Both the position numbers and the translations under genes were made by a program. Shown here piece by piece: positions 3,403 to 3,475 of a DNA stretch of 6,611 nt. Location: positions 1 through 6,611 of IMG/VR virus record IMGVR_UViG_3300029736_000184; one strand, written 5' to 3'. How positions within the stretch are numbered: the stretch's first letter is position 1; the number at the start of each line of letters is the position of its first letter. The notes below the pieces were generated by a model that was not told the DNA's origin, searched no databases, and saw only the letters and a program-made list of their open reading frames with translations. The stretch comes from a virus.

Positions 3403-3475
3403 TTGACATTTGGTGAGTACCGTCAGTATCGGTTACTCACTACTTGCTTTTACAATAACATAAAAGTGAGTAACT
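3403..3475 (+). promoter_or_regulatory. Control region for the plus-strand RHH gene. TTGACA (3403..3408). Inverted repeat GTGAGTACCG (3413..3422) / CGGTTACTCAC (3430..3440) with a 7-nt spacer. Third copy GTGAGTAAC (3466..3474). TACAAT -10-like hexamer (3451..3456). Candidate three-site operator for the RHH repressor, with divergent promoters toward the structural operon.
   Basis: Motifs read directly. Exact hexamer spacing to a -35 is not canonical, so promoter assignment is tentative. The repeats are unambiguous. Confidence 0.5.

What the first reader, a model, noticed from the sequence alone, without database searches (positions are those of the whole stretch)
3403..3475. Triple GTGAGTA(A/C)C repeat (one inverted pair plus a third copy over a TACAAT hexamer) upstream of the RHH gene
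Sites at 3413..3422, 3430..3440 (inverted) and 3466..3474 form an inverted repeat with a 7-nt spacer plus a downstream direct copy that overlaps the best -10 candidate. RHH dimers typically bind such arrayed half-sites, so this looks like an autoregulatory operator. It also sits in the divergent promoter region for the structural operon and could therefore gate virion production. The motif does not recur elsewhere in the genome.
Basis: seen in the sequence. Interest (0 to 1): 0.55.

Follow-up and report, generated by a model that had tools for sequence, protein, structure and literature searches.

The report
Repressor binding sites of gut inovirus
The repeats are real and are most likely the DNA sites where a small phage repressor (a ribbon-helix-helix protein) shuts off the promoter of the virion genes of a filamentous phage of the gut bacterium Enterocloster. 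Related phages carry at least six swapped versions of repressor plus sites, which is the classic signature of phage immunity groups.

Summary
The repeat is real. GTGAGTAMC occurs exactly three times in the 6.6-kb window, all within 3413-3474 (0 of 200 shuffles reach three). Relatives reveal a fourth, degenerate copy at 3422-3430. The third copy does not overlap TACAAT. It fills the spacer of a strong minus-strand promoter (TTGACA-N17-TGtTATTGT, 3480-3452) that faces the coat and assembly genes, and TACAAT is the other strand of that -10.

The window is a circular Enterocloster inovirus. In near-identical relatives a 232-bp cassette (3400-3631), holding the repeat region plus the first 45 codons of the RHH gene, is replaced as a unit. 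There are six versions, each with its own repeated motif flanking the same promoter. Flanks stay 91-100% identical and Rep 93-100%, so the repeats follow the RHH DNA-binding domain and not Rep. RHH proteins with the same N-terminal strand, in unrelated inovirus backbones, keep the same motif at the same place.

Best reading: these are RHH operators that repress the virion-gene promoter and define heteroimmunity groups, as RstR does in CTXphi. Autoregulation is possible but not shown. The RHH promoter probably lies further left (3302-3330), facing the repressed promoter. This is a new member of a known kind, supported by comparison only.

The parts
3413..3421 (+). Operator site O1, GTGAGTACC (8 of 9 to GTGAGTAAC). 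This extra upstream copy is specific to this phage lineage.
   Evidence: Exact pattern match. Invariant among five type-A loci.
3422..3430 (+). Operator site O1', GTCAGTATC (7 of 9). It is the degenerate left half of the family's canonical tight palindrome with O2 (start-to-start offset 10).
   Evidence: MAFFT aligns it with GTGAGTAAC of L031, L030 and L032. Listed among the 2-mismatch hits.
3432..3440 (-). Operator site O2, GTGAGTAAC on the minus strand. It lies about +6 to +14 of the predicted leftward transcript.
   Evidence: GTTACT.AC is invariant in 8 loci from 5 backbones.
3466..3474 (+). Operator site O3, GTGAGTAAC. It fills the upstream half of the spacer of the leftward promoter and abuts its -35.
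   Evidence: GTGAGTAAC-N-GTCAA is invariant in 8 loci. Spacer sequences are given.
3452..3480 (-). Leftward promoter P_left: -35 TTGACA 3480-3475, 17-nt spacer, TG 3460-3459, -10 TATTGT 3457-3452. Predicted start near 3445.
   Evidence: Best promoter-like site of the whole window. An equivalent minus-strand promoter scores 9-12 of 13 at the same place in all 13 loci examined.
3498..3704 (+). RHH repressor gene (68 aa).
   Evidence: Pfam RHH_5 above cut-off, PHROG Arc-like repressor. AF2 model pLDDT 82 with extended N-terminus plus two helices. Foldseek top hits are CopG.
3400..3631 (.). Exchangeable immunity cassette: the operator region plus RHH codons 1-45.
   Evidence: 64-68% identity between types, against 91-100% in both flanks. 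The six types are listed.
3302..3330 (+). Candidate promoter of the RHH transcript (TGTACA-N17-TGgTAAAAT), facing P_left.
   Evidence: Similar extended -10 promoters lie 133-194 nt upstream of RHH in L024, L025, L029 and L032. Prediction only.
3298..3399 (.). Block that is 96-100% identical in all immunity types. It is the leader of the leftward transcript and forms a long hairpin on the minus strand.
   Evidence: DNA fold z = -3.6.
3720..3745 (-). Terminator hairpin between the RHH gene and the convergent Rep operon.
2576..3115 (-). First genes downstream of P_left: a 77-aa protein (2882-3115) and the major coat protein (2576-2866), followed by a terminator at 2566-2545. The Zot-like assembly ATPase follows.

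Best explanation
The GTGAGTAAC-type repeats are the operator of the phage's 68-aa ribbon-helix-helix repressor. The window is a circular 6.5-kb inovirus of Enterocloster. Four sites (3413-3421, 3422-3430, 3432-3440 and 3466-3474) bracket the -10 and start region of a strong leftward promoter at 3480-3452. O3 fills the spacer next to the -35. O2, O1' and O1 cover about +6 to +33, one helical turn apart. That promoter drives the 77-aa protein, the coat protein and the assembly genes. RHH dimers insert their N-terminal beta-ribbon into successive major grooves and probably bridge the sites on either side of the -10. This excludes or traps RNA polymerase, so virion production is held down in the lysogen, and an incoming phage of the same type is repressed as well. 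Operator and DNA-binding domain form one exchangeable cassette (3400-3631). At least six versions of it circulate in otherwise near-identical phages, so the cassette sets heteroimmunity groups. The RHH gene itself is probably transcribed from further left (3302-3330), through the operators and towards P_left. Repressing P_left would then relieve interference on RHH expression, and bound RHH could also act as a roadblock to its own transcript. Shown here: the repeats, their restriction to this spot, the cassette exchange, the independence from Rep, the conservation of motif and geometry across backbones, and the RHH fold. Inferred: binding, repression, immunity, the transcription start sites and the face-to-face arrangement.
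For: (1) Three exact copies lie within 62 bp and none elsewhere; 0 of 200 shuffles match this.
(2) P_left is the best promoter-like site in the window, and O3 lies in its spacer.
(3) There are six cassette types: A GTGAGTAMC, B GGGGATTAA/GGGGAGTAA, C GTGACGTCAC x2, D GGTACYAC palindromes, E GTGCWWGCAC x2 and F AAGTGATACCAC x2. Each goes with a different RHH N-terminus. Cassette identity is 64-68% against 91-100% in the flanks.
(4) Each type's motif occurs essentially only there; the short 8-mer of type D has one further copy per contig. The copies flanking the -10 are 34-35 bp apart in types A, B, C and F.
(5) A minus-strand promoter overlapped by the repeats is found in all 13 loci.
(6) RHH proteins with the strand KKPR(V/I)Q(T/S)(I/V)L sit in backbones with other Rep families (Rep_trans, Viral_Rep). 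They keep GTTACTCAC, then 33-36 bp, then GTGAGTAAC-NGTCAA, and the invariant alignment columns fall almost entirely in the two sites and the -35.
(7) Within-type polymorphisms avoid the sites: 0 of 36 site positions against 8 of 65 others in type A (p = 0.025), and 0 of 20 against 12 of 74 in type C (p = 0.046).
(8) Types with related strands have related motifs: A/B (R/K-Q-I), D/F (Q-K/R-Y) and C/E (x-T-R).
(9) RHH fold: Pfam RHH_5, an AF2 model, and CopG as the top structural match at probability 0.98-0.99.
Against: There is no experimental binding, footprint or transcript-start data. The promoters are consensus predictions. The longest exact repeat is not individually significant in type D (103 of 500 shuffles). 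The assignment of residues 7, 9 and 11 as DNA-facing rests on my own alignment to Arc, and the monomer model does not form the strand. The operators do not control Rep: there is no copy near it and it lies upstream on the other side. A repressor that leaves replication uncontrolled is therefore an incomplete immunity system, unless Rep is regulated otherwise. No clear RHH promoter lies inside the operator region.
Confidence: 0.8

Rival explanations
1. The inverted repeat with its 7-nt loop plus the third copy form the double-strand origin of rolling-circle replication: a nick-site hairpin with Rep-binding iterons.
For: The element lies in the largest non-coding region of an RCR replicon. The region folds as ssDNA better than shuffles (z = -2.8).
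Against: Rep is 99-100% identical in loci of types A, B, C and D, whose repeats are unrelated in sequence. The same motif accompanies the same RHH strand next to three different Rep families. The repeats therefore follow RHH and not Rep.
Confidence: 0.03
2. The repeats act as a nucleic-acid structure, either an RNA hairpin in the leader of one of the two transcripts or an ssDNA hairpin for packaging or minus-strand priming, and not as protein-binding sites.
For: Both strands fold with z-scores of -2.5 to -2.8. The perfect 10-nt inverted repeat is 3432-3441 with 3465-3474.
Against: Across 8 loci the 10 pairs show no meaningful covariation: 8 never vary, 363 of 500 shuffles do as well, and the one change in L033 is uncompensated. 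The sequence itself is invariant while the surrounding DNA is 63% identical on average. A structural role also does not explain why the motif changes together with the RHH DNA-binding domain.
Confidence: 0.05
3. The sites are RHH operators, but their main role is autoregulation of the RHH gene's own promoter, and not repression of the virion-gene promoter.
For: RHH repressors are commonly autoregulated (general knowledge of CopG, Arc/Mnt and antitoxins). If the RHH transcript starts at about 3337 it must read through all four sites.
Against: No acceptable plus-strand promoter lies within or right of the sites, because the leftward -35 ends 17 nt before the start codon. What is conserved across backbones is the contact of O3 with the leftward -35 and the bracketing of the leftward -10. 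This reading is not exclusive of the best explanation.
Confidence: 0.12
4. The RHH protein is not an immunity repressor. It is either a CopG-type copy-number regulator of Rep or the antitoxin of a toxin-antitoxin pair, and the repeats are its autoregulatory operator.
For: CopG and RHH antitoxins (CopA_SO, AtaR, ParD) are the nearest structures. Types D-F also hit Pfam RepB-RCR_reg. A small gene follows RHH on the same strand.
Against: Rep lies about 900 bp away on the opposite strand, convergent with RHH, and has no motif copy near it. The gene after RHH is not conserved: a 26-aa membrane peptide here, DUF2726 in L024, an unrelated 233-aa protein in L025, and none in L031 or L032. No toxin family was detected.
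Confidence: 0.04

Closest known systems
RstR and the ig-2 region of the filamentous phage CTXphi (Vibrio cholerae)
   Same: Both are filamentous phages. In both, the repressor gene is oriented against the other phage genes. Repressor and target region differ between otherwise similar phages, and this gives type-specific (hetero)immunity (PMC7326730, read). The same cassette pattern is seen here.
   Different: From my own knowledge, RstR is a helix-turn-helix protein and represses the rstA promoter, which drives replication and, downstream, all phage genes. Here the repressor is an RHH protein, only its N-terminal 45 residues are exchanged, and the target promoter drives the coat and assembly module while Rep lies outside it.
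CopG (RepA) of the rolling-circle plasmid pMV158
   Same: It is the closest solved structure (2cpg, 1b01, 1ea4; probability 0.98-0.99). It is a small RHH repressor of a rolling-circle replicon that binds a pseudo-symmetric element overlapping a promoter and spreads over successive helical turns (my own knowledge).
   Different: CopG is co-transcribed with repB and represses its own copG-repB promoter to set copy number. Here Rep is convergent, distant and without sites. Sequence identity is only 22-24%, and there is no PDB hit by sequence.
Arc and Mnt of Salmonella phage P22 (immI region)
   Same: They are phage RHH repressors. Arc binds as a dimer of dimers to an operator placed between the -35 and -10 of a strong promoter, in a region with two overlapping opposed promoters (my own knowledge). 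The PHROG hits here are 'Arc-like repressor'.
   Different: The PHROG matches are weak (E = 6e-4 and 3e-3). The P22 immI region controls an antirepressor and not virion genes. It has no known multi-type cassette exchange of the kind seen here.
Omega repressor of pSM19035 (inc18 plasmids)
   Same: It is an RHH dimer that recognises short repeats occurring in both direct and inverted orientation in front of promoters (my own knowledge). That is the same mixed orientation as O1(+), O1'(+), O2(-) and O3(+).
   Different: Omega heptads are contiguous 7-bp units. Here the units are 9-10 bp apart on one side, and a lone site lies 34 bp away across the -10.
Face-to-face lytic/lysogenic promoters of coliphages 186 and P2
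   Same: If the RHH promoter is at 3302-3330, the repressor promoter and the repressed promoter converge about 108 bp apart. Repression would then relieve transcriptional interference, as at 186 pR/pL (my own knowledge).
   Different: The 186 and P2 repressors are not RHH proteins, and the arrangement here rests on predicted promoters only.

Membership tests
Ribbon-helix-helix (CopG/Arc/MetJ) DNA-binding proteins | Sequence match to an RHH family profile above its curated threshold | tested here: met
   Pfam RHH_5, 32.2 bits against a cut-off of 26, covering residues 6-44. PHROG Arc-like repressor.
Ribbon-helix-helix (CopG/Arc/MetJ) DNA-binding proteins | Strand, helix, helix fold | tested here: met
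   AF2 gives an extended N-terminus 1-13 and helices 14-27 and 31-64, pLDDT 82. Nearly all of the best Foldseek hits are RHH proteins, led by CopG (TM to target 0.72-0.80). The strand itself is not formed in the monomer model, as expected for a strand that pairs only in the dimer.
Ribbon-helix-helix (CopG/Arc/MetJ) DNA-binding proteins | Dimer whose two-stranded sheet reads the major groove of repeated half-sites | not testable with these tools
   Only indirect evidence: motif type follows strand residues 7, 9 and 11.
Phage immunity module (repressor plus operators) with heteroimmune variants | Repeated sites next to the repressor gene that overlap the promoter of the productive-cycle genes | tested here: met
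   The sites bracket the -10 and fill the spacer of the predicted P_left. The promoter is predicted, not mapped.
Phage immunity module (repressor plus operators) with heteroimmune variants | Repressor DNA-binding part and operators change together between otherwise homologous phages | tested here: met
   Six cassette types. The cassette is 64-68% identical against 91-100% for the flanks, and Rep is 93-100% identical.
Phage immunity module (repressor plus operators) with heteroimmune variants | Lysogen immune to the same type and sensitive to other types | not testable with these tools
   This needs infection experiments.
Rolling-circle double-strand origin (Rep iterons or nick hairpin) | Repeats specific to, and co-varying with, the Rep protein | tested here: not met
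   Rep is 99-100% identical across types A-D, which have unrelated repeats. The same motif occurs with three Rep families.
CopG-type copy-number control | RHH gene in one operon with rep, and the operator at that operon's promoter | tested here: not met
   Rep (4416-5243) is on the opposite strand, convergent, and has no motif nearby.
Type II toxin-antitoxin (RHH antitoxin) | Conserved toxin gene directly downstream in the same operon | tested here: not met
   The downstream gene differs or is absent between loci, and no toxin family was found.

The most novel reading that the evidence does not exclude
Gut Enterocloster inoviruses carry a modular, RHH-based lysogeny switch built from two converging promoters. 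Its specificity module (beta-strand domain plus operators) has diversified into at least six heteroimmune types that recombine freely between phage backbones, even between backbones with different Rep families. The matched strand and operator pairs would form a natural data set for reading the RHH beta-strand to DNA recognition code. The types would also define superinfection-immunity groups that structure inovirus carriage in a human gut commensal.
Probability: 0.45. Interest if true: 0.6.

Novelty: new member of a known kind. Interest (0 to 1): 0.45.

Why it matters
Enterocloster inoviruses are the only filamentous phages shown to be secreted by a gut commensal (PMC10061712). That paper does not mention a repressor, a promoter or an intergenic region. 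This locus is the likely on/off control of their virion production. The six matched repressor and operator versions give a ready-made set of specific pairs. They predict which lysogens exclude which phages. They are also easy to test by gel shift or reporter assay, and could serve as orthogonal repressor-operator parts for Clostridia.

Tried and rejected
- Rfam search of the whole window at E <= 1 found nothing, and there is no tRNA or tmRNA.
- A sequence search of the RHH protein against the PDB found nothing at E <= 10.
- blastn against annotated phage records matched only the ATPase gene of porcine and rodent-gut inoviruses, so no annotated relative of the control region exists there.
- Rep-iteron or origin reading: rejected because Rep is invariant while the repeats change.
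- Hairpin reading: no covariation.
- I looked for a plus-strand promoter inside the operator region that would use TACAAT. No -35 lies at 16-18 bp, and the simple scan finds none. TACAAT is better explained as the other strand of the leftward -10.
- I looked for a small minus-strand gene in the 330-nt leader (3116-3445). None is convincing.
- I looked for two RHH types in one fetched contig, as a sign of polylysogeny. None was found in the stretches held.
- The exact-repeat shuffle test per type is weak for type D (103 of 500) and moderate for type B (17 of 500). The argument therefore rests on the joint pattern and not on each type alone.

Full report
**What the window is.** The 6611-base window is a complete circular genome of 6512 bp with a 99-nt terminal overlap. 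It is a small inovirus.
- The minus strand carries a rolling-circle Rep (4416-5243; Pfam REP_ORF2-G2P, PHROG rolling-circle initiation).
- It also carries a coat-like protein (2576-2866) and a Zot-like assembly ATPase (1855-2685).
- blastn to annotated phages hits only the ATPase gene of gut 'Inovirus sp.' records.
- The 68-aa protein at 3498-3704 (+) is RHH (Pfam RHH_5, 32.2 bits against a cut-off of 26).
- Its homologues come from Enterocloster citroniae, E. bolteae and E. asparagiformis and from human-gut metagenomes. An exact DNA anchor also finds E. aldenensis.
- Enterocloster inoviruses of 6.5-8.5 kb have been shown to be secreted in vitro and in vivo (PMC10061712). That paper does not mention a repressor, a promoter or an intergenic region.

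**Checking the observation.**
- GTGAGTAMC matches exactly three times, at 3413-3421 (+), 3432-3440 (-) and 3466-3474 (+). No other match exists in the window, and 0 of 200 shuffles give three. One mismatch adds nothing.
- The stated 7-nt spacer holds for the extended arms 3413-3422 and 3430-3440, but those arms pair only with a bulge. The perfect inverted repeat is copy 2 with copy 3 (10 nt, 23 nt apart).
- The claim that copy 3 overlaps TACAAT is wrong. TACAAT is at 3451-3456 and copy 3 starts at 3466.
- The promoter scan places the best promoter-like site of the whole window on the minus strand: TTGACA (3480-3475), 17 nt, TATTGT (3457-3452) preceded by TG. TACAAT is the other strand of that -10, and copy 3 fills the spacer next to the -35.

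**Relatives.** The 27 bases just left of the repeats (GGTTACCAATGCACCTACAACAACCAC) served as an exact anchor. It retrieved 21 loci from viral, genome and metagenome collections. In these loci the anchor block and the 3' part of the RHH gene are nearly unchanged, but the stretch between them is replaced. Two further versions came from RHH homologues P0037 and P0040. The six types are:

| Type | Loci | Repeated motif | RHH N-terminus |
|---|---|---|---|
| A | window, L008, L010, L019, L020 | GTGAGTAMC | MPTKKPRVQTIL |
| B | L001, L005, L013, L016 | GGGGATTAA / GGGGAGTAA | MPTKKPKVQIIL |
| C | 13 loci | GTGACGTCAC x2 | MPSNLPRLTVRL |
| D | L015, L023 | GGTACYAC palindromes | MATKKPQVKAYI |
| E | L027, L028 | GTGCWWGCAC x2 | MPSNKPILTIRT |
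| F | L029 | AAGTGATACCAC x2 | MATDRAQIRSYV |

- The exchanged cassette is window 3400-3631, that is, the operator region plus RHH codons 1-45. It is 64-68% identical between types, whereas the 102 nt to its left and the 130 nt to its right are 91-100% identical.
- L023 (type D) is 98% identical to the window over the rest of the genome.

**The repeats follow RHH, not Rep.** The Rep protein is 100% identical in L023 (type D), 99.3% in L022 (type C), L001 and L013 (type B) and L008 (type A), and at least 93% everywhere. Repeats that change completely while Rep does not change cannot be Rep-specific iterons. The variable region right of RHH (3764-4395) is also the same in the window and in L023. 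Nothing but the RHH N-terminal domain co-varies with the repeats.

**Same strand, same motif, different phage.** Seven loci carry RHH proteins 53-79% identical to the window's and with the same N-terminal strand. They sit in backbones with other Rep families:
- L024 and L031: Rep_trans.
- L025, L032 and L033: Viral_Rep.
- L030: G2P type.
- L026: a short contig carrying the same protein as L025.

All keep GTGAGTAAC-(C/T)GTCAA in front of the RHH ribosome-binding site. All keep GTTACTCAC (GTTACTAAC in L033) 33-36 bp to the left. In a MAFFT alignment of 8 such regions the mean column identity is 63%, but GTTACT.AC, GTGAGTAAC and GTCAA are invariant. Most relatives have a tight palindrome GTGAGTAAC-N-GTTACTCAC, and the alignment puts window 3422-3430 (GTCAGTATC, 7 of 9) in its left half. 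The window therefore has four sites. 3413-3421 is an extra copy one helical turn further out, and 3422-3430 with 3432-3440 is the canonical, partly decayed palindrome.

**Geometry.**
- In all 13 loci examined, the best minus-strand promoter within 120 nt of the RHH start scores 9-12 of 13 (perfect TTGACA-N17-TATAAT in L024 and L025). It is overlapped by the type's own repeat in the spacer or the -35.
- The copies that flank the -10 are 34-35 bp apart in types A, B, C and F, although the sequences are unrelated. Each motif occurs essentially only there in its genome or contig.
- Within a type, polymorphisms avoid the sites: 0 of 36 site positions against 8 of 65 others in type A (p = 0.025), and 0 of 20 against 12 of 74 in type C (p = 0.046).
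- Taken singly, the longest exact repeat beats shuffles clearly in types C and F (0 of 500), E (3 of 500) and A (7 of 500). It does so less clearly in type B (17 of 500) and not in type D (103 of 500).

**Protein.** The AF2 model (pLDDT 82) has an extended N-terminus and two helices. Nearly all of the best Foldseek hits are RHH proteins, led by CopG with and without DNA (probability 0.98-0.99). No PDB relative is found by sequence. I aligned the N-terminus to Arc by eye (my own inference), which makes residues 7, 9 and 11 face the DNA. They read:

| Type | Residues 7, 9, 11 |
|---|---|
| A | R-Q-I |
| B | K-Q-I |
| C | R-T-R |
| E | I-T-R |
| D | Q-K-Y |
| F | Q-R-Y |

The motifs pair up the same way: A/B GTGAGTAA against GGGGAGTAA, D/F GGTACCAC against GATACCAC, and C/E AAGTGAC..GTCACCT against AAGTGC..GCACCT. 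This is what direct read-out by the strand predicts.

**Mechanism proposed.**
- RHH dimers occupy O3 in the spacer of P_left and O2, O1' and O1 just downstream of its start. They block the promoter that drives the 77-aa protein and the coat gene.
- A terminator follows the coat gene at 2566-2545, as after the coat gene of Ff phages (own knowledge). Beyond it lie the assembly genes.
- The leftward -35 ends 17 nt before the RHH start codon, so the RHH promoter cannot lie to its right. No usable plus-strand promoter lies among the sites.
- The best candidate is TGTACA-N17-TGgTAAAAT at 3302-3330, in the conserved block. Similar promoters lie 133-194 nt upstream in L024, L025, L029 and L032. In L033 another plus-strand gene directly precedes the operators.
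- The two promoters would then face each other about 108 bp apart, as in coliphage 186 (own knowledge). This part is inference.
- Rep has no sites, so RHH controls virion production rather than replication.

**Rivals.**
- A Rep origin is contradicted.
- A structural role of the inverted repeats finds no covariation: 8 of 10 pairs never vary, and 363 of 500 shuffles do as well. It also does not explain the link to the RHH domain, although the region does fold better than shuffles.
- CopG-type control of Rep and an antitoxin role fail their gene-order tests.
- Pure autoregulation is not excluded but is not what the conserved geometry points to.

**Comparison and verdict.** The logic is that of a phage immunity region. 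The closest analogue in filamentous phages is CTXphi RstR, whose allelic diversity gives biotype-specific heteroimmunity (PMC7326730). The protein is a CopG/Arc-class RHH rather than a helix-turn-helix protein. Full-text searches for an RHH repressor or operator in filamentous phages found nothing relevant. I rate it a new member of a known kind, with moderate interest.

Noticed in passing
window 1-99 and 6513-6611: The window ends are an exact 99-nt direct repeat, so this is a complete circular genome of 6512 bp. The ORF listed as 5616-6611 continues across the junction. It runs to about position 453 on the minus strand, giving a protein of about 449 aa with an N-terminal signal-like segment, possibly the adsorption protein.
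   Followed up: partly
window 464-487: Prophage copies in long contigs (L023, L001, L012, L013, L019) begin and end their similarity to the window at about 464-487, and L023 holds this stretch at both ends. This is the likely attachment site. No integrase is encoded.
   Followed up: partly
window 3375-3398; L024 2794-2817; L030 636-659; L032 2870-2893; L031 (about 2865-2890): The 24-mer GGTTACCAATGCACCNACAACAAC, next to or just upstream of the operators, is kept in inovirus backbones with three different Rep families, while the DNA around it differs. It is not Rep-specific and its function is unknown. It may be a module junction used in cassette exchange, or a host-factor site.
   Followed up: partly
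window 3298-3399: This block is 96-100% identical in all immunity types. On the minus strand (presumably the packaged strand) it forms a hairpin of about 70 nt (DNA fold -11.6 kcal/mol, z = -3.6). One arm of the hairpin is the promoter-like TGTACA-N17-TGgTAAAAT. It could be the RHH promoter, a minus-strand-origin-like promoter mimic, or both. There is no Rfam match.
   Followed up: partly
window 3760-3840 (+) and 3764-4395; L024 3266-3820; L025 3269-3970; L030 1256-1468: The slot just downstream of RHH on the same strand holds a different small gene in each phage. Here it is a 26-aa membrane peptide, in L015 another membrane protein, in L024 a DUF2726 protein and in L025 a 233-aa protein. This looks like a cargo position expressed together with the repressor.
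   Followed up: no
window 3633-3704: The last 23 codons of RHH (YEAQQNRTEQKSKLEKSSISKTG) are conserved at the DNA level across all six immunity types, yet they are replaced by unrelated tails in RHH proteins of other backbones. AF2 extends helix 2 through this tail at low confidence. It may serve oligomerisation, or simply be the recombination boundary.
   Followed up: no
window 2545-2566 (-): A strong terminator-like hairpin (9 pairs, 7 G-C, T-run) lies directly after the coat gene and inside the start region of the Zot-like ORF as listed. This suggests attenuation between the coat and assembly genes, as in Ff phages, and a later true start for the ATPase.
   Followed up: no
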